A DNA stretch of 64,000 nucleotides from a virus (IMGVR_UViG_3300037137_001027:95508-159507); one strand, 5' to 3'; positions 3,176 to 59,086 are shown, numbered from the stretch's first letter. The notes: generated from the sequence alone by a model not told the origin. Made by a program: numbers and translations.

Positions 3176-3880
3176 ATGATGACTTTCAGGGAATATGTAG
3201 TTAGACGGGAGGCGAGTTCTAACATATTTCAAAATGCGGGGGCTGGAAGGGGGAGTATGGCTAGTGACGCCAGGGATGTAGTAAGTACACTTGGTTTTGC
3301 TCCTGCTGGAGCGATTGCGGCACCTTATGCAGCGGCGAAGGGATTTTTAGGAACGACTCCTGGCAAGTATCGTTCGATGGTGCGTGGTAATCCATATCTT
3401 TCAGACACGCCAGAGAGGACGAAGGTATTAGCTGGGAAGGCGTATGAAGACAGTAGTAGTTGGTTGTTAGATCGTGTTGAGCGAGAGAAGGTGCCACAGG
3501 TAAGGGGCAGGTTAATAACATCTTTACAGCAGGCGGTACAGGAATTGGACCAACATTTTCATTCTCAGCAACCGACGAAGATTACGGCTACGGGGCAGAT
3601 GGTAGGTCAGCAGGCAACGGGAATGAGTAATTTCTTTGCATTACCAGCTTCGATTATTGCGGGTATTAAGCAGGCGGCGAAGAATGTCATAGACACGTTA
3701 AATCCTGCGTATCAGAATCAATCAAATGAGTGGGCAGAGAGTGTAAACAAGATGGTATTATCTTTGGATGCTTTGAGGTCGGTATTACCAATGGAGTTGG
3801 TAGACTCATATATTAAGACATTTTTACATAATTTGGAGAAGGGCTGGGGATCAAGGGCTAGAGAAATAGGAAGGAGTTAA
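3176..3880 (+). CDS. putative internal head protein
   Basis: N-terminus MMTFREYVVRREA (capsid-targeting-like); TAGATA box 5 nt before ATG. Confidence 0.55.
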   Translation: MMTFREYVVRREASSNIFQNAGAGRGSMASDARDVVSTLGFAPAGAIAAPYAAAKGFLGTTPGKYRSMVRGNPYLSDTPERTKVLAGKAYEDSSSWLLDRVEREKVPQVRGRLITSLQQAVQELDQHFHSQQPTKITATGQMVGQQATGMSNFFALPASIIAGIKQAAKNVIDTLNPAYQNQSNEWAESVNKMVLSLDALRSVLPMELVDSYIKTFLHNLEKGWGSRAREIGRS

Positions 3881-3892
3881 TATATAATCATT

Positions 3893-4114
3893 ATGGTTAA
3901 GACATTTTTAGATTGGGTAAAGATCAAGGAATCGACGGCTGCTAAGAGGGCAAGACGGGCTGCTGCTGGTATTGACATAGGTAAAGGACCGAGTATTGCA
4001 GATGCAGCAATTAATAGTTACTCTACTGCACCGCCTGCAATAAAGGATGCTATTGTAAAGCGTAACAAGCATGAGAAGAAGAAGGGTTGCGACTCTAAGC
4101 TTCCGCCGAAGTAA
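3893..4114 (+). CDS. small basic putative internal head protein
   Basis: MVKTFLDWVKIKES; TATATA box 6 nt before ATG. Confidence 0.55.
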   Translation: MVKTFLDWVKIKESTAAKRARRAAAGIDIGKGPSIADAAINSYSTAPPAIKDAIVKRNKHEKKKGCDSKLPPK

Positions 4115-8306: not shown

Positions 8307-8918
8307 TTAACCAAATTTGTAATCTACAGATATTTTAACATTAAAACTAGGTACAGCGATATGGTTACACAGATTATGTTTTTTGGCTTCCTTTGCTGTA
8401 AGATACCAGTCTGCGTGGCCTCTTTCGTGGATTATATCCAAGAAAAAGTGCTTGGATTTACCGCAATTTTTTGACAGAAGTTCAAAGATATAGGTATTTA
8501 AACGATCCGTTTCATCAACATCTGCTTTCAAATCCTCTACTTTACCAAATTGAAAACTTGAAACCTCATGGATCATCAACGTAGCATGAGGGGCCATATA
8601 TCGCAAGCCATCATTGCCTAGTCCAAAAAGAATTGCACCTGCGGAAAAAGCTTTGGATTCAACGATGGTAGCTACGGGCAATTGTACATTTTGAAGTTCT
8701 GCGATCATGCCTAAGACAGAATAAACTTGCCCGCCATAGGAATCTACAACTATGGGAATAATTGGCTGGCCTGTCTCATGGGCTTTATTTAAGTCTTCTG
8801 AGAACTTATCAGTGCTTTCTTCATTGAATTTCTTAAGTCTAATAACGATAGGTTGTTCAATTAAATCTGCTAAATTCTTAACTTTGATGCGTGGATCAAC
8901 TTCGATTTTCTTGAGCAT
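8307..8918 (-). CDS. clpP: ClpP-family serine protease
   Basis: DSYGG, AFSAGA (Ser), LMIHE (His), ADWYLTAKEAK (Asp). Confidence 0.9.
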   Translation of the reverse strand: MLKKIEVDPRIKVKNLADLIEQPIVIRLKKFNEESTDKFSEDLNKAHETGQPIIPIVVDSYGGQVYSVLGMIAELQNVQLPVATIVESKAFSAGAILFGLGNDGLRYMAPHATLMIHEVSSFQFGKVEDLKADVDETDRLNTYIFELLSKNCGKSKHFFLDIIHERGHADWYLTAKEAKKHNLCNHIAVPSFNVKISVDYKFG

Positions 8919-9522
8919 TAATATCCTTTGCTAGCCATATAAGCCTGTTTTGATGTATATAGGTTATACTACAATTAACAACGAAATTCAACTGTTCTTT
9001 TATCAGGTGAGTAAGTGCAAGAATCTTTTGGATAAAATCAGTATGGGTAATTAGAACCGATCTAGGCGGAAGAATATCTAGTGTTTCTGTGATACGATTT
9101 TCAAAATCGTGGTAATCTTCGAATGGTGTTCGCTTACAAAGATGGTTGTCAGCTTCAAACGAGATAGAACATATTTCCCTGATTATTGCAGAAGTTTGTT
9201 TACATCTTAGATAAGGACTAGAAAAACCAACATAACCAGCAAGATGAAGTTCCCTTAAGAACTCTGCTGCACGAAATGCTTGCGCACGTCCGCTTGATGT
9301 AATTGAACCATCCTCTACCCGAAGATCACTTTGAGCATGTCGTAAGATGATAATATCTTTGAGATAGATCGTCTCATCTTCGGTGACGAACTTATTATGT
9401 TCGTTATCAAGGAAGCCACTTAGGAGTTCACCGTTCTTTTCCTGGTCGCTGAGCTTGGAAAACGCATCTCCATGATGCGAACCAGTAACAACCTTGTCCC
9501 CGATAAAAAGTGCTGGCACCAT
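8896..9522 (-). CDS. histidine phosphatase (PGM/SixA superfamily)
   Basis: ILRHAQS, SSPYLRCKQT, VLITH. Confidence 0.85.
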   Translation of the reverse strand: MVPALFIGDKVVTGSHHGDAFSKLSDQEKNGELLSGFLDNEHNKFVTEDETIYLKDIIILRHAQSDLRVEDGSITSSGRAQAFRAAEFLRELHLAGYVGFSSPYLRCKQTSAIIREICSISFEADNHLCKRTPFEDYHDFENRITETLDILPPRSVLITHTDFIQKILALTHLIKEQLNFVVNCSITYIHQNRLIWLAKDINAQENRS

Positions 9523-9598
9523 CCTTCACTCCCTGGTTTATATTTACTTTGAGCAAAAAAATTTGATGGCATTCATTCGGTAAATATTTTACGCTATT

Positions 9599-9913
9599 CT
9601 AGTCATTGTTCACGAATCTTCCAAGAAATAATCGGTAAACTTTGCTATAAGCTCTGCCCCAATTTGGCCCATGAATATCTGCGTCCTTATCCCAAGCCAC
9701 AGCATGGGCGACTTCGTGTATTAGCACATCAATGGAGTAGTTCTCATTAAGATTTGAATTAACCTTTATCATAAATTTGTCATTCTTTTTTTCACATAGT
9801 CCATCATAGCCTTCGCGTATCTTTACACGCCTTACACTAATAGATTCATCCACTAAATTAGAGTTCTTAAAGAAACTAGCTACTTCTCGGAAGTAATCAT
9901 ATGCCATAGTCAC
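9599..9913 (-). CDS. SprT/ImmA-like zinc metallopeptidase
   Basis: LIHEVAH...HGPNW. Confidence 0.75.
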   Translation of the reverse strand: MTMAYDYFREVASFFKNSNLVDESISVRRVKIREGYDGLCEKKNDKFMIKVNSNLNENYSIDVLIHEVAHAVAWDKDADIHGPNWGRAYSKVYRLFLGRFVNND

Positions 9914-9976: not shown

Positions 9977-10972
9977 TTGCAAGGAGGCAGAGTGCAGTAT
10001 GCTGGTATTTCCGTAGTCAAAAATGAAGCAGATATTATAGAAGTCTTTATAAGACATAACCTTAAGTATCTAAACAAGTTATACATTGTTGAACACAATA
10101 GCCAGGACAATACGCCTGAAATCATTAATAGCCTAAAAACAGAAGGTTATAACATAGAAATTTATACCAATCAGTCGTCTAGACATATACAGGCAGAAGA
10201 ATTTAATAATCTAATAAGAAAAACTGATGCCGACTTCATTACTTTCCTTGATGCCGACGAGTTCATTATTTCACTAGATTTCACAAAAGAATTGGCTAAA
10301 TTGCCTACGGATGTAGTTTCGTTTTTAACCTGGCACAACTATATGCCACAAACTACAGATGACAAGACCGAGATAAACGTTCTTAAAAGGATTCAGCACA
10401 AGCTTTATCCAGTCGATACCAACCAGCACAAGGCGATTATACCTAAATCAATTTATTCAAGACCAGATAGCTTTGTATTGCTGGGCGGTCACGAAATATA
10501 CTATAAGAACGAAGAACTCGTTCCTGCACCTTACCAAGTGATTTCTTCAATCCACCTGGCACATTTCCCTATCAGAAGCCTCAACCAAATCAAGGTTAAA
10601 GCATTTGCTAATTGGCTCGCCAAACTAGCCGACCCGCTCCATCAATCAGGAAGATTGCATGATGGTAAAATTCCAACCTGGCATCATTGGAAAGTATTAT
10701 TTGATTTATTCAAGAATAATCCCGCGATTACTGAAGCTGAAGCTGTGGAAGCTGTAACCACTGTTTACATGAAGTATTCTAAATTAAAAGGCGAGTTAAA
10801 GTTAGTGGTAGACCCTGTTGTTAACGAAGATGAAATTCGTTATCAAATCAAGGAGCTTACGCCTTTATTGGCGTTAGCGAACACTGCTGAGCAGCAAGTA
10901 GTTATGTTGCAGAAAGCGAACAAGTTTATTTTGAATTTGCTAAACGAGGTTAAGACTTTGGACGCAATTTAG
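9977..10972 (+). CDS. glycosyltransferase family 2-like
   Basis: VKNEADII..F..H, HNSQDNT, FLDADEF, HFPIRS. Confidence 0.85.
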   Translation: MQGGRVQYAGISVVKNEADIIEVFIRHNLKYLNKLYIVEHNSQDNTPEIINSLKTEGYNIEIYTNQSSRHIQAEEFNNLIRKTDADFITFLDADEFIISLDFTKELAKLPTDVVSFLTWHNYMPQTTDDKTEINVLKRIQHKLYPVDTNQHKAIIPKSIYSRPDSFVLLGGHEIYYKNEELVPAPYQVISSIHLAHFPIRSLNQIKVKAFANWLAKLADPLHQSGRLHDGKIPTWHHWKVLFDLFKNNPAITEAEAVEAVTTVYMKYSKLKGELKLVVDPVVNEDEIRYQIKELTPLLALANTAEQQVVMLQKANKFILNLLNEVKTLDAI

Positions 10973-11765
10973 TCAATAGTTCGCCAATGGTGATTAAAGG
11001 GGATGGTTTTTCGAAGCGGTCAATTTCCGCAGGACACATCTCGCAAATAGATTCGTGTTTTCTGGAAATAAAATTATCAAGTTCTTCATCAGTTGCCGTA
11101 TGTTCTAAAGGCTTATATTCTAGGTAATGGTCCCATTTAGGTGAAATGTCGGGCCAACGTTTCTTTTGCAGTTGAAGATAAGCAATCATTGGACACTTAT
11201 AGATTTTACCATCTAGTATTTGCAAACAGTATTTACAGGGGCAGATTTTCCAACTATCTTCGGGGCGATTATCTTCATAGGGCAAAACATCTGGTCCAAA
11301 GCCCTTATAACGGCGTGTCCAATTTTTGCCATCCCTGATACTAAAAGTAATTTCGTTATCATGTAGAAAACTTATAACTTTGTTCCACTGTTGATTAAAC
11401 TCATTTGATTCACCATGTTTAGTAATAATTAGGTTAATTTTTAGTTCCTTGAGAAGTGGTCCCAGGTTTGGAAATTTGGGAAGTAGGAAGCCATTAGTAA
11501 TGAGTTCAATATTACATTTCCAATGGTTCCGAGCAATCCGAACAAATTCTTCAATTCTAGGGTTAAGTAAGGGTTCACCACCCAATATACAAAATGTTTT
11601 GGGGTTTAATCTCTTGCTCCACAAGCCCATTTGGTGGTCAGCGTCTTCTGGAGTAATAAAACCTTTATGACCATTGTTAGAGAAGTGGCTACAGCTTTCG
11701 CATGTGAAGTTACATGCATGAGAAGCATGAATTTCTAGTTTAATAATGTCTTTCAAGGAACTCAT
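10950..11765 (-). CDS. radical SAM protein with C-terminal Cys cluster
   Basis: CNFTCESC, LGGEPLL, ITNG, C..C/KC/CEMC. Confidence 0.9.
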   Translation of the reverse strand: MSSLKDIIKLEIHASHACNFTCESCSHFSNNGHKGFITPEDADHQMGLWSKRLNPKTFCILGGEPLLNPRIEEFVRIARNHWKCNIELITNGFLLPKFPNLGPLLKELKINLIITKHGESNEFNQQWNKVISFLHDNEITFSIRDGKNWTRRYKGFGPDVLPYEDNRPEDSWKICPCKYCLQILDGKIYKCPMIAYLQLQKKRWPDISPKWDHYLEYKPLEHTATDEELDNFISRKHESICEMCPAEIDRFEKPSPLITIGELLTKLRPKS

Positions 11766-12159
11766 AGGTTGTAGTCTCTGTGCTGACGAACATCATGAAT
11801 CACAACCGATTGCAAATTAGGCCATTTTGCTCTTAGGGTTTTACCAAGTTGCACGAAAGCAGGAATGTGTTCTTCCCTATCATCGAAAATTTCTACCATT
11901 TGCACTTCTTGATTTATAAGGCGGTTTAGGATTACAAATTCTTTATAGTCATAGGTATCACCTTTATGTGGGTAGTTTGGGTGTTGGGTAAGGTCTTTTT
12001 GCCCACGAAAGAAGTATTCGTCTGGATGGATTCCGTACTTGTTCAATATTTCTTTGACTTGATTTTCAAATTTAGCTATACGGCCTGTCATTACTACAAC
12101 ACAATTCTTTTGATACCAGGAGATACTGCCTCAACAAATTTTCTGAATTTTAGTTGCAA
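11762..12159 (-). pseudogene. HAD-superfamily phosphatase (PNKP/Swiss-Army-Knife RNA-repair type), internally deleted and frameshifted
   Basis: 5' piece TTG 12159 MQLKFRKFVEAVSPGIKRIVL* (GAGGAG SD); 3' piece in another frame VVMTGR...K...IFDDREEH; DxD motif I absent. Confidence 0.6.
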
Positions 12160-12161
12160 TA

Positions 12162-13790
12162 TTACTCCTCGGTATCATCGCCATGATCTTCGTCGTGGTT
12201 GTAATGATCGTCATGATCTTCTTCTTCATGATCGTCATGATCTTCTTCTTCATGATCTTCGCCACCAGATAGGGCTTCATCTTTTGAACTAAGTCTCTTG
12301 CGGAACTTGTCGGTTTCTAGCCATTTAATTGCGTCTGAGAATTCTGAACCTTGTGGAGTACGACCACCGAAAAGTTTGGCAATTGATGGGTTAATACTTT
12401 TCTTACCTTTTTCATCGGAAACAAAACCTTTAGTGTCAAGTTCATGATTTAGGAAGTGATGCAGAACATCTTCTGGTTGCTTGTTCATGCTGCCCCATTG
12501 TTTTACTAAACTTGGCACCATGCCAGTCTTATGAAAATTCTTCTTCATGTCGAAGAACTTATCCAAGAACAGTTTTGGATTCTTGCCATGTTCACTCATC
12601 CATTTTGAGAATTCAATAAGTGTAACAATATCACGCACTTCGTCATCTGACCAAGCGCCCTGGTGGAGCATTTTCTCTACTTTAGCAGGTGGATTAGCTC
12701 TTAGCAACCATGCAATTGCCAATCGCTTTTCTTTTTTATCAGAGAAGTCTTCGGCTGAGTCAAGTTTGAAAGTCATATCAGGGAACACGGTATCTAATAG
12801 ACCCATTTCCTTATACATTTTAACATATTGGACAGGATCGGTGTCTGGATGTTGTAAGCCTTTAAGGAATTCTTCTTTAATCTTTTCACGGCTAATTGAT
12901 GGTAAATCTTTGATATCTTTGATAGCAGACTTAACATCGTCGCCAATCTTGGTATTTTTGCCGTGTGAAGCGACCTGGCGCACATATCTCAATACGCGGC
13001 CTTGATCTTCTCCAAGTCTTTCTTTCGGGTTGCCTACGAATTCAATTTCACCACGGCGCAAGTGATGTGCGCCACCGTGCGGATCGACAAGTTTAGCATT
13101 AGCCCCGTCAGCACTTGTCAAAGGAATGTACATAGCATTAACAGTAAAGTCTCTTCTGGCTGCATCGTCATCCAAAGTACCGAACTCCATGCTGTCTGGA
13201 GTCTTGCCGTCACCGCTGCCTTTGGAACCTTTTCTAAATGTGGCTATTTCGAATTCTTCTCCATTGACTCTGGCGTTAAATACATATTCTTTTCCACCAC
13301 GATCCCAGCCCTTTGCGTGGAAAACCTTGTTCTTTTGTCCTGCTTCTGGATGCTTGTCATATTTGGTGGTTTGTGACTTACCATCGCCTTGTGGTTTAAC
13401 TTCAGTAAATCCAGCGCTTCTCAGGATTAAACGAATTTCATCTGGTCCTGCATCCGTTACTAAATTGTAGTCTCTAGGAGTTTTGCCCAAGAGGTGGTCA
13501 CGGACTGCGCCACCAGTAAGATACAATCCCTTCTTCTTTAGACGTGGGGAGGTTTCACCTTTTGCTGGGTCAATGGTGGTTAACTTTTGCGGATAACCGT
13601 CAGGACCAGGCAGGGAAACCTTATCACTATCTAAGAAAGCTTTAGCAATAACCCTTAAATTAGGGTGATTTTCACCATCAATAACAAATGGCTTGAAGTC
13701 TGTATCATCAGCCAGTTTGACTTCTGAAGATGCCTTCTTAGCTTCTGTATTCTCTTTCAATCCAACAAATTCTAAAAATGTTTTTCTCAT
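12162..13790 (-). CDS. CCA-adding enzyme / poly(A) polymerase-family nucleotidyltransferase
   Basis: GGAVRDHLLGK.P.DYN, EIATFR, DAARRDFTVNAM, DPHGG, ED..R.LR, SREKI..E; ATG 13790 or GTG 13802. Confidence 0.9.
   Translation of the reverse strand: MRKTFLEFVGLKENTEAKKASSEVKLADDTDFKPFVIDGENHPNLRVIAKAFLDSDKVSLPGPDGYPQKLTTIDPAKGETSPRLKKKGLYLTGGAVRDHLLGKTPRDYNLVTDAGPDEIRLILRSAGFTEVKPQGDGKSQTTKYDKHPEAGQKNKVFHAKGWDRGGKEYVFNARVNGEEFEIATFRKGSKGSGDGKTPDSMEFGTLDDDAARRDFTVNAMYIPLTSADGANAKLVDPHGGAHHLRRGEIEFVGNPKERLGEDQGRVLRYVRQVASHGKNTKIGDDVKSAIKDIKDLPSISREKIKEEFLKGLQHPDTDPVQYVKMYKEMGLLDTVFPDMTFKLDSAEDFSDKKEKRLAIAWLLRANPPAKVEKMLHQGAWSDDEVRDIVTLIEFSKWMSEHGKNPKLFLDKFFDMKKNFHKTGMVPSLVKQWGSMNKQPEDVLHHFLNHELDTKGFVSDEKGKKSINPSIAKLFGGRTPQGSEFSDAIKWLETDKFRKRLSSKDEALSGGEDHEEEDHDDHEEEDHDDHYNHDEDHGDDTEE
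12204..12260. repeat. 24-bp tandem repeat encoding His/Asp/Glu tail
   Basis: atgatcgtcatgatcttcttcttc x2 plus partial; EDHEEEDHDDHEEEDHDDH. Confidence 0.85.
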
Positions 13791-13814
13791 ATACCTGCTC
13801 ACCTATTATTATAT

Positions 13815-14216
13815 TTACGGCTTAAGGCCCAATTTCCACAAAATTATACTGCCAATTACTACCACACCAACCTTGAAAATAAAATCAACGATACTAGACC
13901 ACTTATTATTTGTTTGCATCATCTCTTTCTCGACATGAACTAATCGTTCTGAAAGATGCTCAATCTTACCATCTATTATATTAACGTCGTTCTTAAGATC
14001 AGTGATTAATTGTGTGCCATTTTTGTTTTCTAGTATAGCAATACGATTTATTAAAGTCATCTGATTTTCATAGAGCTTCTCGATTCTATCCTTAGACTCG
14101 TTGTTGCTCTCGATAAGCACTTTCATCCTCTCGTCAATACGAGCGGTCATTTCGAAAACAAGTTTCAGGGAATCATTAACTTCTTTAAATTTTTCTTCCA
14201 TAGATATCCTTGCCAT
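13815..14216 (-). CDS. coiled-coil protein with C-terminal membrane anchor
   Basis: Heptad pattern then FIFKVGVVVIGSIILWKLG. Confidence 0.65.
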   Translation of the reverse strand: MARISMEEKFKEVNDSLKLVFEMTARIDERMKVLIESNNESKDRIEKLYENQMTLINRIAILENKNGTQLITDLKNDVNIIDGKIEHLSERLVHVEKEMMQTNNKWSSIVDFIFKVGVVVIGSIILWKLGLKP

Positions 14217-17180: not shown

Positions 17181-17669
17181 ATGATAAAGTTTATTGAATT
17201 CATTGACAAAAAGGAAAGAGAGACGAAGAAACAACTCAAGATCATTGAGCATATCCTTCTCGCTCACGAAATGAACGTCAAAAGTCATCTGGATGACGAT
17301 GATCCATACCTTTTTGTTTACAACACAAAGAAAAACACTTTCTTCGAAGGTATTAGAATTTACAAAGTTGGCGATCAAATCTCTTTCAGGGTTCAAAAAG
17401 ACGAAAAAACAGAACCTTTTGGTCGTGCATACCCGATGGACATTGAAGAAATGTTTGAAGATTTAGTTACAGATTATAAACCTGAAGAAGCTGGCAGGAA
17501 AATAATGGCAGCAGTTACCACCGAGGTTAAGAAATTTTTTGACCGAAGTGCTATTGCTGAAAAAGAGTTGCGTGACAAAGAGTTTGAACGTGATCCGTGG
17601 GGCAAGGTGGTTGTCCGAAGTTCCGATTATGGGATGGATTACAGCAACCTCACATATATGAAGGCTTAA
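17181..17669 (+). CDS. hypothetical late protein
   Basis: MIKFIEFIDKKE; TAGATA box 5 nt before ATG. Confidence 0.65.
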   Translation: MIKFIEFIDKKERETKKQLKIIEHILLAHEMNVKSHLDDDDPYLFVYNTKKNTFFEGIRIYKVGDQISFRVQKDEKTEPFGRAYPMDIEEMFEDLVTDYKPEEAGRKIMAAVTTEVKKFFDRSAIAEKELRDKEFERDPWGKVVVRSSDYGMDYSNLTYMKA

Positions 17670-17671
17670 AG

Positions 17672-18001
17672 ATGGGTGGGTTCCAAGAGTGGGTGGGCAA
17701 GAAGCGAGTTGTTGATAATTTTGAATTAGGGCTTGGAAAATCTATACCAGAAAACAAAAACGCTGGTGGTGGCTTTGATCCCACAAGCAAAGAACAAGTT
17801 AAAAAATTCAAGAAAGTAGATTTAATAACGTTACCCGTTGAAGGAACTAACTGTGGCAACTGTATGTTTATGGTTCCAGTTGATAAGGCAAAAGGTGTCG
17901 GTTGGTGTAATCACAAGGATGTTTTAGAGTTTGTTACCCCAAAAATGTGTTGTGCAATGTGGAATCACACAGATGTTAAACGGCAGTGGGAAACTAAATA
18001 A
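17672..18001 (+). CDS. HiPIP-like Cys-motif protein
   Basis: NCGNCMFM-x9-GWC-x8-V-x4-CC..W; N-terminus MGGFQEWV. Confidence 0.5.
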   Translation: MGGFQEWVGKKRVVDNFELGLGKSIPENKNAGGGFDPTSKEQVKKFKKVDLITLPVEGTNCGNCMFMVPVDKAKGVGWCNHKDVLEFVTPKMCCAMWNHTDVKRQWETK

Positions 18002-45251: not shown

Positions 45252-45384
45252 TTTTTTTCTCCAAAATAACCTTAAATAAAATCTCTAGTACCATTTTACT
45301 ATGATAATCAAAAGGCTCAAGCTGTTTAAATAAACAACCAAAGCTTTCATGTACTAATTTAGTTTTTTCCTGAGATTCTGTCAT
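45214..45384 (-). CDS. small hypothetical protein
   Basis: MTESQEK start with AAAGG SD. Confidence 0.4.
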   Translation of the reverse strand: MTESQEKTKLVHESFGCLFKQLEPFDYHSKMVLEILFKVILEKKNGQRLHLPDKKE

Positions 45385-45697
45385 GACAATACCTTTCAAC
45401 AAATATCTAGAGATCAAGGATAACTATTGCCTGTCATATTTTGGTGAAGATAAAGACATTATAGCAGAAATCCTATGGGCTAGAATGTATATCGAGAAGG
45501 AATTAAAAGGGATAAAAGTGTTCATTGCTTGCAATGATGCCTTTAAAAATGAAATGCATGGCAAGAGAAACATAATTTTAGAGTCAAAAATGGGTAATTA
45601 TGCAGGAAAAATGGCTCATACTTGTAATTTGGAAAAAAAAGATGACTTAAAAGCACTTTTAGTGAATGCAAAAATACCAATTCCTGAAAATTTTTAA
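45383..45697 (+). CDS. hypothetical protein
   Basis: ORF only. Confidence 0.5.
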   Translation: MTIPFNKYLEIKDNYCLSYFGEDKDIIAEILWARMYIEKELKGIKVFIACNDAFKNEMHGKRNIILESKMGNYAGKMAHTCNLEKKDDLKALLVNAKIPIPENF

Positions 45698-49750: not shown

Positions 49751-52294
49751 ATGAACAAGTGGCCAAAAATAAAGAGCAGTATTTATCAAGAAAAATTAGA
49801 TGAGGTTTGTAAAGTATTCGTTGATGTAAAAGATAATAGTGCGAGTACAAAGACCCCTCGTTGTGAGTGGACAGTCCCACTGAAAAATTGGACCACTGCA
49901 CAAATCAAGACAGACAATTCGCTCAAATTATCACTGCAAGAATTCGCCCATCTTAGCGGCCAGGTTAATGCCTTGAAAATAGCTATGGCAAACAACCACG
50001 GCAAAGAGAACGAAGTAATACAGGAATATCAGCAGGCTTTTACTAATGATTACTTAAGAATTCTAGAAAGTAAGACCAATGAGTTAAAACTAGAAGTTAC
50101 AGCCGAATTAGTAGAAGAGAAGCAATTTCCACTAGAACTTTTCGTCATTTGGTATGAAGAAGCTCATAAACTACCACCAGAACAATTTAATGAAGAATTA
50201 GGTGACTTTTGGGGAGATGTTTGGAAAAATGCTGGTAAAGGCGCAGGATATGGAGGTTTAATAGGTGGTGCTGCTGGTGGTATTCCTACAGGCGGTATGG
50301 GAACCTTTGCGGGCGCAGGCTTGGGCGGATTAGCAGGCTGGGCGGCTGGTGGATTATATGGCGGCGCTTCACACTTATTAAAGAAAGTTTGGCACTATCG
50401 ACAAACCCAACGTAATTTTGAACAGACAAAACAAAAAGCATTAGAAGCTCTTAAAAATTTGAAAGATTTATCTGATAACTTTGACATGCATCCAAATTTC
50501 ATAAAATCATTAGACACGATGATTGACCAGTTGGGAACTGCAAGAGCGTATCGCACAGCAGGAGCAACACCGCAACCTACAGACCAAAATGCTATACCTG
50601 GAAAGCAAGTTAATACGACAGAACCCCCAACGAGTCCAGAACCAGAAGCTTCACTTGGAACATCAGGAGTTCCTAAAACTACGCCGCCTCCTACTCCAGC
50701 TTCATCGTCAGCGGCGGCAGCTTCACCTCCTGTTTCACCGACCGCACCGCCAGGCGCAACTGCTGCCGCGCCATTAGCACCAAAGCCGACCGCACCGCCA
50801 GGCGCAACTGCTGCCGCGCCATTAGCACCAAAGCCGACCGCACCTGCACCAGTTGTATCAGCGCCAGTTACACCGACCGCACCTGAACCAGTTGTACCTC
50901 CAGTTGTATCAGCACCAGTCAAGCAAAAGAAAGAAGTGAACATAGCAAAGGGAATAATGCTTCAGGGGCGATTGGCATTTAGTAACGGTAGAAAATTAGA
51001 GGATAATCCTTGGCTTAGACCTGAAAAATTAGATAAGCCTAAAGCTGATACTTGGGCATATGGATATAACGCCGCAAAAGAAAAAGCTGAAAAGGGTACT
51101 CCAGGCATCCCACCAGAAGCCACACCCCCTGTAGAAACATCGCCAGAAACTACAACAGCACCTGCTAGAAAAAGATTTGATGAAGAAAAGCATATTTTGG
51201 ATCACTACAAAGATGCTAGTGAAGAAGAATTGGCTAAATTAGGCACAATAGCATTAAATACAATTGGCATCGTACAGGGAGATAACGATAAGCCGCAGTT
51301 GAACAAAATACAAGATATGGACTTTAATACTTTTACTGATGCGTTTCATCAGTTACGCGGCCCGCAGCATGTCCCAACAAATGAAGACGATTTAAAAGAC
51401 ATGGCAAACATTGGTAGACAGTTTTTACAACAACTTACCGATAAAACATCAGGTGGGGCAGGCACCTCAAAAGTAGACACAGGCGCTGGTGCGCCAGTGC
51501 CAAAAGAAGAGAAGCCGTTAAGTAAAGAAGAAGTTTTGGAAACTCTAAGGAAAAAGTTTGATTATCTTAGCCATTTAGCTTCACCTGATCTAAAAGCATT
51601 CATCGCAAAGCACGGCCTTGATGATTTGGCAAAAGATGATAATGACAAGATAACTGTTAGTGGTCCTGGCACCCCAAATCGTAAAGGATTTGTAAGAGAT
51701 TTAGCAGTTAAACTAAATCGGTCGTTAGGTGGCCCTGAAGAACCACCATCGCCAGAATTAGCAGAACTAAATCCAGCAGCGCCTGTTGCACCGCCAGCAG
51801 CAGCGGCAGCAAAGGCAACAGAGCCAGGTGAAGCTACACCACCTAAGCCAAAAGAACCAGAAGTGACGGCTACGCCGCCAGCGGCTAGCACTGTTAGTAG
51901 GCCACAACCCAAAAAAGAAGCCCCAACGGGAGAACCAGTTAGAGATTATAAAAAACACACAGATGAAGAACTTGAAAAGTTATCAAATAAAGAACTGAAA
52001 AAAATAGGTATGCACTTAGACTTGGACACAGACATTAAAGATGCTAGAAACAGACGTGACATTATTAATATCTTGGGACAATTCTATAGTATGCCAGATG
52101 CATCTGAAGGTGACAGAACAAGAACCGCAAAAGCAAAAGCTGAAAAGTGGGCAGCGGAAAACTTATTAAAAGGCAAACAAGAGTCCGCAATGGAAAAATA
52201 CGGCAGAATTCTCCATGAGCGAAAACTGGCTGCATTACCTATGAATGAAAAGGTGGGATATTTGAAATCTTTACTTAGTTGCCGTGGTAGCTAG
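49751..52294 (+). CDS. large Pro/Ala-rich protein with glycine zipper (putative ejection/internal protein)
   Basis: TAAATA box 5 nt before ATG; GxxxG run; PA linkers. Confidence 0.6.
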   Translation: MNKWPKIKSSIYQEKLDEVCKVFVDVKDNSASTKTPRCEWTVPLKNWTTAQIKTDNSLKLSLQEFAHLSGQVNALKIAMANNHGKENEVIQEYQQAFTNDYLRILESKTNELKLEVTAELVEEKQFPLELFVIWYEEAHKLPPEQFNEELGDFWGDVWKNAGKGAGYGGLIGGAAGGIPTGGMGTFAGAGLGGLAGWAAGGLYGGASHLLKKVWHYRQTQRNFEQTKQKALEALKNLKDLSDNFDMHPNFIKSLDTMIDQLGTARAYRTAGATPQPTDQNAIPGKQVNTTEPPTSPEPEASLGTSGVPKTTPPPTPASSSAAAASPPVSPTAPPGATAAAPLAPKPTAPPGATAAAPLAPKPTAPAPVVSAPVTPTAPEPVVPPVVSAPVKQKKEVNIAKGIMLQGRLAFSNGRKLEDNPWLRPEKLDKPKADTWAYGYNAAKEKAEKGTPGIPPEATPPVETSPETTTAPARKRFDEEKHILDHYKDASEEELAKLGTIALNTIGIVQGDNDKPQLNKIQDMDFNTFTDAFHQLRGPQHVPTNEDDLKDMANIGRQFLQQLTDKTSGGAGTSKVDTGAGAPVPKEEKPLSKEEVLETLRKKFDYLSHLASPDLKAFIAKHGLDDLAKDDNDKITVSGPGTPNRKGFVRDLAVKLNRSLGGPEEPPSPELAELNPAAPVAPPAAAAAKATEPGEATPPKPKEPEVTATPPAASTVSRPQPKKEAPTGEPVRDYKKHTDEELEKLSNKELKKIGMHLDLDTDIKDARNRRDIINILGQFYSMPDASEGDRTRTAKAKAEKWAAENLLKGKQESAMEKYGRILHERKLAALPMNEKVGYLKSLLSCRGS
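50738..50844 (+). repeat. 48-bp tandem repeat x2.2
   Basis: Encodes PTAPPGATAAAPLAPK. Confidence 0.9.
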
Positions 52295-53192
52295 TTAGCC
52301 AACGGACTGTTCCGCTTTCTGATCGCATAAATACGCTATTGGTAATTGGGCCGAATTCACTAAAACGAACCCCTTTCAGAAGGCTACCGTCCGTTATTCC
52401 AGTTGCTGCAAATACACAATGTCCAACTACTAGATCATCCTGATGATAAACCTTATCATCAAGTTTATTGCCATCTTTATCGCATAATTGTGCTTGAAAG
52501 CCACCGCCCAAGCATTTCACAGCACATGCAGTCAAAACTCCTTCGGGTGCGCCACCCGCGCCATACAACAAATCAATACCCCTATCTGGCAAACAAGCTG
52601 CTATAGCTCCACTAACATCGCAGTCCTGTATCAGCTTAATCCTAACGCCCATTTTTCTCATTCTTGCTATCACTTCAACATGGCGTGGTCTATCTAAAAT
52701 ACAAACCATAATGTCAGTCATTTTCTTGCCAGTAGCAAGTGCTAATAACTGTATCGTTCTCTCAATAGGATCGTTTATATTCAACTGGACAGTTTTGGCG
52801 ATAGAAGCTCCAAAAGCCAGTTTGTTCATATAGAACTCATGCGTCCGAAACATGCTGCCGCCATCGGCTACAGCTATTGTAGACATGGCTTCTGGACCAG
52901 AAGTAACGGTTGGTCTTGTACCTTCGATTGGATCAACTGCTATGTCTAATGCAGGAGTTTGTTCTGTCCTTAAACTACCAACATCTTCGCCGCAATAAAG
53001 ACCAAATGATTCATCTTTTTTACCTTCACCAATGGCTATGGTGCCACGGAACTCCATCTTATTTAGTCGGCGTCTCATTGCTTCGGTGGCAGCTTTATCT
53101 GCTTCTAGTTTATCACCGCTACCGATCCAATGAGAGGCGGCGATGGCGGCGTTCTCGGTAGTACGCACTATATCAAGACCCAACAATTTCAT
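52275..53192 (-). CDS. glpX: class II fructose-1,6-bisphosphatase
   Basis: R.TE.AA, AD.AA..AMR, IGEG..DE, DIAVDPIEGT, YM.KL, LDRPRH, D.DV, G.GGAPEGV, ATGITDG.LL.GV. Confidence 0.95.
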   Translation of the reverse strand: MKLLGLDIVRTTENAAIAASHWIGSGDKLEADKAATEAMRRRLNKMEFRGTIAIGEGKKDESFGLYCGEDVGSLRTEQTPALDIAVDPIEGTRPTVTSGPEAMSTIAVADGGSMFRTHEFYMNKLAFGASIAKTVQLNINDPIERTIQLLALATGKKMTDIMVCILDRPRHVEVIARMRKMGVRIKLIQDCDVSGAIAACLPDRGIDLLYGAGGAPEGVLTACAVKCLGGGFQAQLCDKDGNKLDDKVYHQDDLVVGHCVFAATGITDGSLLKGVRFSEFGPITNSVFMRSESGTVRWLTSYHGN

Positions 53193-57854: not shown

Positions 57855-58276
57855 GCTTAACTTTAACAATATCTCATAATATGTTTTTGGACCGTCAACA
57901 ACGCTATGATCTTTTCGAAGGAAAAGAAGTAGATGTTGTTGGGGTCAGTGTTCCAGTGTGGTACTATCAAAAGAAAACATCGGAGCCAGGCAATGAAGTA
58001 TTCTGTAAATACAGACTAATACCTACAGACTATAAGATATTCGTAAAACATAATGATGAAGGATATGAAATATATCTCCCAAAGAAATCTTTTAATCCAG
58101 AAGATAACAGAAACAATCCTTTGACATTAAAAAACATATTGGATCATAAGGATGGCGGAATTGAATGGATAGCTTTTAGGCAATTTGGCAAGGCTAAGAA
58201 AAACAAAAGGTCAGTTGATATCATCCATTTTGTGGAAATTAAAACTATAGAAGAGTTTGAAAAAACTACATCATAA
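57851..58276 (+). CDS. hypothetical protein
   Basis: ATGA coupling to nuclease gene. Confidence 0.6.
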   Translation: MSLTLTISHNMFLDRQQRYDLFEGKEVDVVGVSVPVWYYQKKTSEPGNEVFCKYRLIPTDYKIFVKHNDEGYEIYLPKKSFNPEDNRNNPLTLKNILDHKDGGIEWIAFRQFGKAKKNKRSVDIIHFVEIKTIEEFEKTTS

Positions 58277-59086
58277 CATAATTGTTGGTTTCGTTCTTTT
58301 GTTTCTAAAATGTTCTCTAACATTATCTTCACGATACATGTCGGCTTCTGTTGGATGAATAATAGCAGTGTGAGAATGTGTAATTGGAATTAGTCCAGTC
58401 GGCGTTGAGAAGCTTGGCAGCGATTGCCGCCATTTCATTTCCATAATATGTCCTATATTCTCAACCCTGCATACATTACAACCAAGTAACCAAGTCGATA
58501 TCTGGTCGTGGGCAAAGTGGATTAAAGGATATAGTTTGTCAAACTTATCAGCAGGCATTAAGCCAATTTGTTTAAAAAATTTGAAACAATGATTGGTCCA
58601 CATCATACAGGGGCCAGCCGCCATTTCAGTTCTGAAATTATATGTGTACTCACCCATAAATCCAGAAGTTCTTAAAGAACTATGAAACCCAAAATCTTTA
58701 CTAGGAGTATGCCAAATACTGCCAACAAAAAATATGTCTGTATCTACTACCTTGCTGGACATTATATCAATGAATGGTCCGACACATAATGCATCAGAAT
58801 CCATAGTAATAACATGATGATAACCCATCGGTTTAAAGTAATCCAAAGCATGAATGATTGTGCGTAAAATGCCACGTCCCCAACCATTCTGTTCGGAAGA
58901 AACAAATACATGTTCCTTGCCATATCTACTTCTTAATGAAGATGCAGCTTCTTTATTAAAATCAATTGCAAAAACCACATCATAATTTCCCTTGTTATAA
59001 TATCTTATTGAATCGGCAGTATCGACCAAGTAATGTGGGTTTTTGTGACCTACTACCATCACTAGAGTTTTTGGATTTTTTAGCAT
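58271..59086 (-). CDS. GT-A glycosyltransferase-like protein
   Basis: DT.DSI, NGWG, ITMDSD, GP.M, HDQ. Confidence 0.6.
   Translation of the reverse strand: MLKNPKTLVMVVGHKNPHYLVDTADSIRYYNKGNYDVVFAIDFNKEAASSLRSRYGKEHVFVSSEQNGWGRGILRTIIHALDYFKPMGYHHVITMDSDALCVGPFIDIMSSKVVDTDIFFVGSIWHTPSKDFGFHSSLRTSGFMGEYTYNFRTEMAAGPCMMWTNHCFKFFKQIGLMPADKFDKLYPLIHFAHDQISTWLLGCNVCRVENIGHIMEMKWRQSLPSFSTPTGLIPITHSHTAIIHPTEADMYREDNVREHFRNKRTKPTIML

What the first reader, a model, noticed from the sequence alone, without database searches (positions are those of the whole stretch)
10950..13817. Nucleotidyltransferase + RNA-repair-type HAD + radical SAM operon with an altered catalytic motif
Seen: a tightly packed minus-strand unit behind a TAAATA box (13812-13817): CCA/PAP-family gene, HAD gene 2 nt later, radical SAM gene by ATGA overlap. 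The transferase keeps RRDFT.NA and the EDxxR templating motif, but the metal-binding DxD reads D-Y-N (GAC TAC AAT). It has a long N-terminal extension, no recognisable HD domain, and a His/Asp/Glu tail (EDHEEEDHDDH...). Established: class II nucleotidyltransferases need both Asp residues; 3'-phosphatase plus CCA addition can repair tRNA 3' ends cut by host nucleases. Inference: a tRNA/RNA end-healing counter-defence module, or a re-purposed or inactive tRNA-binding decoy.
Basis: partly seen in the sequence, partly recalled or inferred. Interest (0 to 1): 0.72.

Follow-up and report, generated by a model that had tools for sequence, protein, structure and literature searches.

The report
Conserved but probably inactive phage CCA-enzyme
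A huge uncultured phage keeps a full-length tRNA CCA-adding-type protein whose catalytic aspartate is replaced, and its relatives lost catalytic residues about ten separate times while selection kept the protein intact, so its value probably lies in binding tRNA-like RNA, not in adding nucleotides.

Summary
The D-Y-N motif is real: GAC TAC AAT at 13472-13464. It is not an error. The closest relative (94% identical) has Asn through a different codon, and dN/dS between the two is 0.05.

The "three-gene operon" does not hold.
- The HAD gene is broken by a private, recent 214-bp out-of-frame deletion that removes the DxDxT nucleophile motif.
- The radical SAM gene and the convergent GT2 gene form an inserted cassette with its own history. 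Only 1 of 43 viral loci with a homologue has it beside the transferase.
- TAAATA is not enriched.

The conserved unit is the transferase plus a SAK-family HAD phosphatase, adjacent in 33 of 66 related loci (some are near-duplicate contigs).

Only 66 of 159 non-redundant relatives keep DxD.
- One old clade lost four catalytic or nucleotide-binding motifs.
- The canonical clade shows about nine more state changes, best read as losses.
- Dead-looking forms are as constrained as intact ones (dN/dS about 0.05).

The AlphaFold model keeps the whole head-neck-body-tail fold.

Best reading: a pseudoenzyme or severe hypomorph selected for RNA binding. The conserved N-terminus resembles the T4 capsid-targeting peptide, so it may be packaged and injected; this is a lead only.

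Another window of this scan noted this same stretch and the capsid-targeting resemblance.

The parts
12162..13790 (-). Class II CCA-adding/poly(A)-polymerase-type nucleotidyltransferase homologue, 542 aa from ATG 13790 (the ORF is open from GTG 13802).
   Evidence: PF01743 E 3e-23. phrog_2244 tRNA nucleotidyltransferase E 9e-36. AF2 pLDDT 88.6 and pTM 0.81. Foldseek top hits are full-length class II CCA enzymes. The exact 542-aa form is present in JGI, Logan and ENA calls.
13752..13790 (-). N-terminal 13 residues, MRKTFLEFVGLKE. The motif F-x-x-[YF]-h-x-h-[KR]-E is conserved across the whole family and resembles the T4 capsid-targeting sequence MKTYQEFIAE.
   Evidence: Family N-termini. T4 sequence and cleavage after Glu. 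8-9 of 238 ORFs in this genome start with a similar motif against 1.1-1.7 expected.
13464..13472 (-). D111-Y112-N113 in place of the catalytic DxD (GAC TAC AAT).
   Evidence: L004 has GAT TAC AAC. L005 and L003 have GAC TAT GAT.
13227..13229 (-). Gly192 at the acidic position of the BxA motif (TFR-K-D/E in canonical members).
   Evidence: The motif is defined in PMC2910056.
13134..13157 (-). Motif B, RRDFTVNA, retained.
12996..13010 (-). Motif D, EDQGR (EDxxR templating motif), retained.
12165..12260 (-). Disordered Asp/Glu/His tail containing a perfect 24-nt x 2.2 tandem repeat (12204-12257). Hypervariable among relatives.
12094..12159 (-). 5' stump of the HAD gene (21 codons then TAG). It aligns to the N-terminus of the intact HADs of L004, L005 and L003.
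11762..12091 (-). 3' remnant of the SAK-family HAD phosphatase (109 aa). It keeps motif II (VVVMTGR) and the FDDR acidic motif but lacks motif I. The deletion junction lies at about 12100/12101 within TTGT microhomology.
   Evidence: PF10307 positions 81-183 of 203 only. 214-bp gap against L004. The remnant is seen in JGI and Logan assemblies. dN/dS against L004 is 0.037.
10950..11765 (-). Radical SAM protein (271 aa, CNFTCESC cluster motif) of unknown specificity. Part of an inserted accessory cassette, not of the RNA module.
   Evidence: PF04055 E 1e-9. No specific NCBIfam family. Contexts. dS 2.4 against L004.
9977..10972 (+). Family 2 glycosyltransferase, convergent with and overlapping the 3' end of the radical SAM gene. 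The second gene of the inserted cassette.
   Evidence: PF13704 and PF00535. Present only in the window and L004.
9599..9913 (-). SprT-like protein. It directly follows the HAD in relatives that lack the cassette.
8896..9522 (-). Histidine phosphatase (branch 1) homologue, a syntenic neighbour in L003-L006.
13815..14216 (-). Upstream 133-aa coiled-coil protein with a C-terminal hydrophobic segment. It ends 12 nt before the transferase ORF and is syntenic in all close relatives.

Best explanation
Shown:
- Gene 12162-13790 encodes a full-length class II CCA-enzyme-type protein of a huge phage. Related phages have T4-type head genes.
- Two catalytic-core acids are changed: the second Asp of DxD is Asn113, and the acid of the BxA motif is Gly192.
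- The protein has stayed under strong purifying selection since those changes.
- In the wider family the ancestral partner is a SAK-family HAD phosphatase encoded just downstream.
- Catalytic residues were lost once anciently (a large clade) and about nine more times recently, with no relaxation of constraint on the rest of the protein.
- In this genome the HAD was recently destroyed by a 214-bp deletion.
- The radical SAM and GT2 genes are an unrelated inserted cassette.

Inferred:
- The protein here is a pseudoenzyme or severe hypomorph.
- The selected function of the family is recognition and binding of tRNA or tRNA-like 3' ends through the head-neck-body-tail scaffold.
- That binding would present damaged ends to the HAD phosphatase, or shield or sequester them.
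- Nucleotide addition is optional. It could be supplied by the host enzyme, and in this sub-lineage by a second, short canonical transferase (G000:C1:62874-63563).
For: The substitutions are real:
- N113 aligns to the second Asp of solved CCA enzymes.
- Its codon is AAT here and AAC in L004. G192 is GGT here and GGC there.

Selection:
- dN/dS window against L004 is 0.048 at dS 0.42, and 0.036 in the head domain.

Fold:
- AF2 pLDDT is 88.6. Foldseek aligns about 440 columns to 4X4W, 1MIV, 6QY6 and 5HC9.

Family pattern:
- DxD is intact in 66 of 159 non-redundant members, with at least 13 state changes on a FastTree.
- IQ-TREE gives 10 state changes among 74 rows. The window and P0001 sit in a clade with 95% SH-aLRT support, together with canonical P0002 and the ND/GD forms P0003 and P0006.
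- The old clade has NYD, no BxA motif, NRD and EDxxT.
- Its dN/dS is 0.047-0.053, against 0.054 for a canonical pair.
- Where DxD is lost, a second motif is lost in about 5.4 of 7 independent pairs and never the reverse.

Partner and redundancy:
- The HAD is adjacent with an intact DxDxT in both canonical and degenerate lineages.
- The short canonical paralogue is present here and in the L005 and L006 genomes.

Literature:
- In E. coli the DxA variant is inactive, and a GNN library at D23 returned only Asp in 15 of 15 clones (PMC6468291).
Against: - No biochemistry was done, and Asn at this position has not been tested in the papers I read.
- The third carboxylate (E185), RRD and EDxxR are all retained here, so nucleotide binding and weak catalysis are possible.
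- RNA binding is inferred from the fold alone.
- The HAD adaptor idea cannot explain selection in this genome now that the HAD is broken.
- G001, estimated 100% complete, carries only the degenerate copy, so a phage-encoded active paralogue is not required.
- The correlated motif loss has a median p of about 0.06, limited by only 7 pairs.
Confidence: 0.6

Rival explanations
1. The protein is still an active CCA-, CC- or A-adding enzyme or poly(A) polymerase. Asn113 would be tolerated because D111 and E185 still hold the metals, and the protein would repair tRNA 3' ends.
For: E185, RRDFTVNA and EDQGR are retained. Purifying selection is strong in the head domain. The family is listed among jumbo-phage RNA-repair enzymes.
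Against: - In E. coli the second Asp was irreplaceable in vivo.
- The BxA acid is lost as well.
- Close relatives replace either Asp with Gly, Asn or Ser and then lose further motifs.
- The partner phosphatase is broken here.
Confidence: 0.17
2. The protein, and in relatives the HAD, is a head-packaged internal protein. It would be targeted to the prohead by its N-terminal 13 residues, cleaved after Glu13 by a T4 gp21-type protease, and injected with the DNA to act on host tRNA before phage genes are expressed. This adds to the best explanation and is not exclusive of it.
For: - MRKTFLEFVGLKE resembles the T4 sequence MKTYQEFIAE.
- The motif is conserved at the N-terminus of the whole family and is followed by a variable Gly/Ser/Glu linker.
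- Several HADs carry it.
- The motif is enriched 5- to 8-fold at ORF starts in this genome.
- Relatives G005 and G001 encode PF03420 (E 1e-29) beside a gp23-type capsid protein (E 1e-88).
- In T4, residues 4 and 7 drive targeting and cleavage follows a Glu.
Against: - This is sequence resemblance only, over a short and A/T-rich start region.
- The protease and capsid genes were not found in this record or in G004.
- There is no proteome.
- HADs of the degenerate clade mostly lack the motif.
Confidence: 0.35
3. The whole block is a decaying, non-functional remnant of an RNA-repair module.
For: The HAD is disrupted by a frameshifting deletion. Two catalytic-core acids of the transferase are lost.
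Against: - The transferase ORF is intact, with dN/dS 0.048 over dS 0.42 since the Asn arose.
- The Asn and Gly codons differ synonymously between lineages.
- Degenerate clades persist at dN/dS about 0.05.
- The HAD remnant's dN/dS of 0.037 shows the deletion is recent.
Confidence: 0.04
4. The transferase, HAD and radical SAM genes form one functional operon, for example for RNA modification coupled to repair.
For: The genes share a strand, and the HAD-frame stop and radical SAM start overlap as ATGA. The same order is seen in L004.
Against: - The cassette is absent in L005, L006 and L003.
- A 72% homologue lies 80 kb from the transferase in G004.
- 42 of 43 viral loci lack the transferase and HAD.
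- Typical neighbours elsewhere are 2OG-Fe(II) oxygenases and a transaldolase.
- One homologue is fused to a GT25 glycosyltransferase.
- The cassette's dS against L004 is saturated while the flanks are at 0.4-0.6.
Confidence: 0.04

Closest known systems
Class II CCA-adding enzymes (Geobacillus stearothermophilus 1MIV, human TRNT1 4X4W, Planococcus halocryophilus 6QY6/6IBP, Thermotoga maritima 5HC9)
   Same: PF01743 head domain, GGxVRD, RRD, EDxxR and a third carboxylate. The predicted head-neck-body-tail fold aligns over about 440 columns.
   Different: - The second Asp of DxD is Asn and the BxA acid is Gly.
- There is an extra N-terminal region of about 90 aa, including a conserved 13-residue leader.
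- There is an insertion of about 50 aa in the head.
- There is a hypervariable acidic/His tail.
- Sequence identity is only about 15-21% by Foldseek.
Jumbo-phage RNA-repair parts: CCA-adding enzymes and stand-alone 'Swiss-army-knife' HAD phosphatases (Iyer et al. 2021, PMC7824862)
   Same: The same two protein families occur in large phages. The pair is adjacent in 33 of 66 related loci.
   Different: - That survey treats the transferases as active repair enzymes. In the passages I read it does not mention loss of catalytic residues.
- Here most family members lack them, and this genome's HAD is broken.
T4 tRNA healing and sealing (Pnkp plus RNA ligase)
   Same: The logic of a phage HAD-type 3' phosphatase acting on damaged tRNA ends (from general knowledge).
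   Different: No kinase or ligase is seen in the block. The partner is a CCA-type protein, so the acceptor end rather than the anticodon loop would be the target (inference).
T4 internal proteins IPI-III and Alt, carrying a capsid-targeting sequence
   Same: A short N-terminal leader with aromatic residues about 3 apart and a cleavable Glu. Relatives have gp21-type protease and gp23-type capsid genes.
   Different: The leader is 13 rather than 10 residues. The cargo is a 60-kDa enzyme-like protein. Packaging is untested.
Inactive nucleotidyltransferase domains used for RNA or partner binding (for example the N-terminal domain of TUT4/TUT7; recalled from memory, not checked here)
   Same: A Pol-beta-type fold kept without catalytic carboxylates.
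   Different: They belong to a different subfamily and organisms. This is only an analogy.

Membership tests
Class II tRNA nucleotidyltransferase / poly(A) polymerase (PF01743) | Motif A: GGxVRD followed by DxD with two catalytic carboxylates | tested here: not met
   GGAVRD is present, but the motif reads D111-Y-N113. N113 aligns to the second Asp of 6IBP.
Class II tRNA nucleotidyltransferase / poly(A) polymerase (PF01743) | BxA basic/acidic motif upstream of the flexible loop | tested here: not met
   R190-K-G192. Canonical relatives have R-K-D. The motif is defined in PMC2910056.
Class II tRNA nucleotidyltransferase / poly(A) polymerase (PF01743) | Third catalytic carboxylate, motif B (RRD) and motif D (EDxxR) | tested here: met
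   E185 in EFEIATFR, RRDFTVNA at residues 216-223, and EDQGR at residues 265-269.
Class II tRNA nucleotidyltransferase / poly(A) polymerase (PF01743) | Head-neck-body-tail fold | tested here: met
   AF2 pLDDT 88.6. Foldseek E 5e-15 to 4X4W, with about 440 aligned columns.
Class II tRNA nucleotidyltransferase / poly(A) polymerase (PF01743) | Template-independent CMP/AMP addition to RNA 3' ends | not testable with these tools
   Needs an enzyme assay.
HAD_SAK_1 phosphatase (PF10307) | HAD motif I, DxDxT, with the nucleophile Asp | tested here: not met
   Deleted in the window. Intact in all 32 other loci where the HAD was found.
HAD_SAK_1 phosphatase (PF10307) | Motif II Thr/Ser and the C-terminal acidic motif | tested here: met
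   VVVMTGR and EIFDDRE are in the 109-aa remnant. Profile positions 81-183 match at E 2e-8.
Radical SAM superfamily (PF04055) | CxxxCxxC cluster motif and core domain | tested here: met
   CNFTCESC at residues 18-25. PF04055 E 1e-9. No specific subfamily reaches its cut-off.
T4-type capsid-targeted internal proteins | N-terminal targeting leader ending in a Glu cleaved by a gp21-type prohead protease | tested here: inconclusive
   A leader-like motif is conserved and enriched. The protease is found in relatives G005 and G001 but not in this record. Cleavage and packaging are untested.

The most novel reading that the evidence does not exclude
Huge phages with T4-type heads package and inject a catalytically dead CCA-enzyme look-alike, often with a SAK HAD phosphatase. 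It would clamp tRNA acceptor ends from the first moments of infection. That would shield them from host immunity aimed at tRNA 3' ends, or hand them to the phosphatase for repair. Such immunity could be nucleases, nucleotidyltransferase toxins or 3'-end-modifying toxins. This would be a new class of virion-delivered pseudoenzyme counter-defence that arose repeatedly from an active repair enzyme.
Probability: 0.2. Interest if true: 0.85.

Novelty: new variant of a known kind. Interest (0 to 1): 0.6.

Why it matters
CCA-type transferases in large phages are routinely annotated as active tRNA-repair enzymes.

- **Annotation.** More than half of one large, metagenome-wide phage family lacks the catalytic carboxylates yet is as constrained as the intact members. 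Those annotations are therefore probably wrong for many genomes.
- **Biology.** The family offers a natural series from active enzyme to pseudoenzyme, with about ten independent transitions. This makes the non-catalytic role of the tRNA-binding scaffold directly testable.
- **Counter-defence.** If the N-terminal leader really is a capsid-targeting signal, the family would also show that T4-style protein injection extends to RNA-directed factors in huge phages.

Tried and rejected
- **TAAATA as a late promoter.** It is not enriched and sits on a stop codon. The sigma-70 and terminator scans are at chance level.
- **Sequencing error or private mutation.** Rejected by the L004 codons and by three assemblies holding the exact protein.
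- **Pseudogene decay of the transferase.** Rejected by dN/dS.
- **Redundancy as a general explanation.** G001, estimated complete, has only the degenerate copy, and LR756511.1 lacks the short paralogue. Redundancy may have helped in this sub-lineage but is not required.
- **The His/Asp/Glu tail as a metal site or HD substitute.** It is a labile tandem repeat, disordered and not conserved.
- **Radical SAM specificity.** NCBIfam gives only generic core matches far below the cut-offs. Neighbours in L095 and in marine viral loci gave no RNA link.
- **tRNA genes.** None in the window and one tRNA-Glu in the 159.5-kb record.
- **Gene context by the look-up of encoding contigs.** I used viral-contig loci instead.
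- **Literature.** Searches for inactive or pseudo CCA enzymes in phages found nothing on this point. This covers only the open library searched.

Full report
**Context**

The window is bases 95508-159507 of a 159.5-kb IMG/VR virus record estimated 79% complete.
- Its only relative in the annotated phage collection is the 595-kb uncultured phage LR756511.1, at 72% nucleotide identity over the transferase gene.
- Protein relatives sit on contigs of 340-670 kb.
- Two related genomes, G005 and G001, carry a T4 gp21-type prohead protease next to a gp23-type capsid gene.
- So this is a huge phage lineage in which related genomes carry T4-like head genes. They were not found in this incomplete record or in G004.

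**What is at the coordinates**

On the minus strand the order is as follows.
- A 133-aa coiled-coil protein at 13815-14216.
- The transferase homologue at 12162-13802.
- A short 21-codon ORF at 12094-12159.
- A 109-aa HAD fragment at 11762-12091.
- A radical SAM gene at 10950-11765.
- A convergent GT2 gene on the plus strand at 9977-10972.
- A SprT-like gene and a histidine phosphatase.

The transferase most likely starts at ATG 13790, behind AGGTGA. That 542-aa form is the one found in three public assemblies.

The D-Y-N reading is correct: GAC TAC AAT at 13472-13464. N113 aligns to the second Asp of the solved Planococcus enzyme. RRDFTVNA and EDQGR are present.

The acid of the BxA motif (TFR-K-D in canonical relatives) is thought to position the tRNA 3' end (PMC2910056). 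It is Gly192 here.

**The HAD is broken**

- The TTG two bases after the transferase stop opens a frame that matches the N-terminus of the intact HADs of relatives but stops after 21 codons.
- The 109-aa ORF starts at the Met of motif II (VVVMTGR).
- Alignment with L004 shows a 214-bp deletion, which is not a multiple of three, between TTGT microhomologies. It removes DFDDT.
- Pfam sees only profile positions 81-183 of 203 of HAD_SAK_1. The intact relatives match the family over most of its length.
- The remnant occurs in both JGI and Logan assemblies.
- Its dN/dS against L004 is 0.037 at dS 0.58, so the deletion is recent.

**The radical SAM gene is not part of the module**

- L005, L006 and L003 go straight from the HAD to the SprT-like gene.
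- Only L004 shares the radical SAM plus GT2 cassette.
- Between the window and L004 the cassette is saturated at synonymous sites (dS 2.4), while the flanks are at 0.4-0.6.
- In G004 a 72% homologue lies 80 kb from the transferase.
- Of 43 viral loci with homologues, 42 have no transferase, HAD or this GT2 nearby.
- Recurrent neighbours there are 2OG-Fe(II) oxygenases and a transaldolase.
- One homologue is fused to a GT25 glycosyltransferase.
- Its chemistry remains unknown.

**The Asn is real and selected**

- L004 is 94% identical and has D-Y-N and R-K-G through different synonymous codons, AAC and GGC.
- dN/dS between the two genes is 0.048 at dS 0.42, and 0.036 in the head domain.
- L005, L006, L003 and L007 have D-Y-D.

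**The family pattern is the main result**

A search returned more than 1,000 hits. The top 120 are proteins of about 500 aa.

Aligned motifs show two states.
- The canonical set is KDYD, ATFRKD, RRDFT and EEDQLR.
- The coherent degenerate set is RNYD, ATLSKS, NRDFT and EDPST.

Many intermediates lie close to the window, with NYD, GYD, DYN or NYN and with GRD, KRD or SRD.

Tree-based counts:
- Among 159 non-redundant proteins DxD is intact in 66.
- A FastTree needs at least 13 state changes.
- An IQ-TREE of the canonical clade with three degenerate outgroups needs 10 state changes. The window and P0001 fall in a five-row clade with 95% SH-aLRT support, together with canonical P0002 and the ND/GD forms P0003 and P0006.
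- Parsimony counts changes, not direction. I read them as losses because the distant outgroups are canonical.

Constraint is unchanged. dN/dS is 0.047-0.053 in the degenerate clade against 0.054 for a canonical pair.

Where DxD is lost, a second catalytic-core motif tends to be lost too. This holds in about 5.4 of 7 independent pairs and never in the opposite direction, with a median p of about 0.06.

This is the pattern expected when catalysis, but not the protein, becomes dispensable.

**Why catalysis is probably lost**

- In E. coli the DxA enzyme is inactive.
- A GNN library at the second Asp gave only Asp in 15 of 15 clones (PMC6468291).
- Asn itself was not in that library, so a weak residual activity cannot be excluded here. 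E185, RRD and EDxxR are all still present.

**Structure**

- The AlphaFold model built on 78 sequences has pLDDT 88.6 and pTM 0.81.
- Foldseek aligns about 440 columns to full-length class II CCA enzymes, including tRNA complexes. The body and tail that hold tRNA are therefore kept.
- Lack of an HD domain is normal for this class.
- The acidic/His tail is disordered. It is a perfect 24-nt tandem repeat that varies among relatives.

**Partner and redundancy**

- The HAD follows the transferase in 33 of 66 related loci, in both canonical and degenerate lineages. Some of those loci are near-duplicate contigs. Motif I is intact in all of them except this window.
- This genome also has a short canonical transferase of 229 aa with DLD, RRDFTMNA and EDSLR, at C1:62874-63563.
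- The short transferase is also in the L005 and L006 genomes, so it predates the Asn and may have eased the loss in this sub-lineage.
- G001, estimated complete, has only a degenerate copy. A phage-encoded active enzyme is therefore not required in general.

**The N-terminal leader**

A note from another window of this scan suggested a capsid-targeting-like N-terminus, and I tested what I could.
- The leader MRKTFLEFVGLKE resembles the T4 sequence MKTYQEFIAE (PMC8442874).
- In T4, positions 4 and 7 drive targeting and cleavage follows a Glu (PMC9026906).
- The pattern F-x-x-[YF]-h-x-h-[KR]-E heads the whole family and is followed by a variable linker.
- Several HADs have it.
- Eight or nine of 238 ORFs in this genome start this way, against 1.1-1.7 expected.

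Packaging and injection are therefore plausible but unproven.

**Verdict**

- The three-gene operon and the working repair module are not supported for this genome.
- The altered motif is genuine and points to a larger, apparently undescribed pattern of repeated pseudoenzyme evolution in a huge-phage CCA-enzyme family.

Noticed in passing
window 3179-3880, 3893-4114, 17181-17669, 17672-18001, 45383-45697; also G000:C1:46858-47130, 51962-52438, 57923-58960: Several unrelated ORFs start with the same kind of leader, for example MTFREYVV, MVKTFLDWVKIKE, MIKFIEFIDKKE and MKTFNEFLE. The motif is enriched 5- to 8-fold at ORF starts. These may be a set of capsid-targeted proteins.
   Followed up: partly
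G000:C1:62874-63563 (outside the window; L002:1291-1980): A second, short (229 aa) CCA-type transferase with all canonical motifs but no body or tail domains. It is 92% conserved in the L005 and L006 genomes and absent from LR756511.1.
   Followed up: partly
window 9977-11765 against L004:8250-10035: The radical SAM plus GT2 cassette is far more diverged between the window and L004 (78% and 71% aa identity, synonymous sites saturated) than the flanking genes (94-96% aa identity). This suggests replacement of the cassette by recombination with a distant allele.
   Followed up: partly
L003:5277-5969 (+): In LR756511.1 a 230-aa gene is inserted on the opposite strand between the transferase and the HAD. 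It has a signal-peptide-like start and caspase-like His and Cys motifs (DAHGW, DTCHSG). This is read from the sequence only.
   Followed up: no
window 8896-9913: A SprT-like metalloprotease-type protein and a branch-1 histidine phosphatase are syntenic with the transferase-HAD pair in L003-L006. They may belong to the same functional neighbourhood.
   Followed up: no
G000:C1:77186-77258: Only one tRNA gene (tRNA-Glu, anticodon UUC) was found in the whole 159.5-kb record, and none in the window.
   Followed up: yes
G003:C1:226299-226742: One relative with a degenerate long transferase also has a separate canonical 412-aa PF01743 protein.
   Followed up: no
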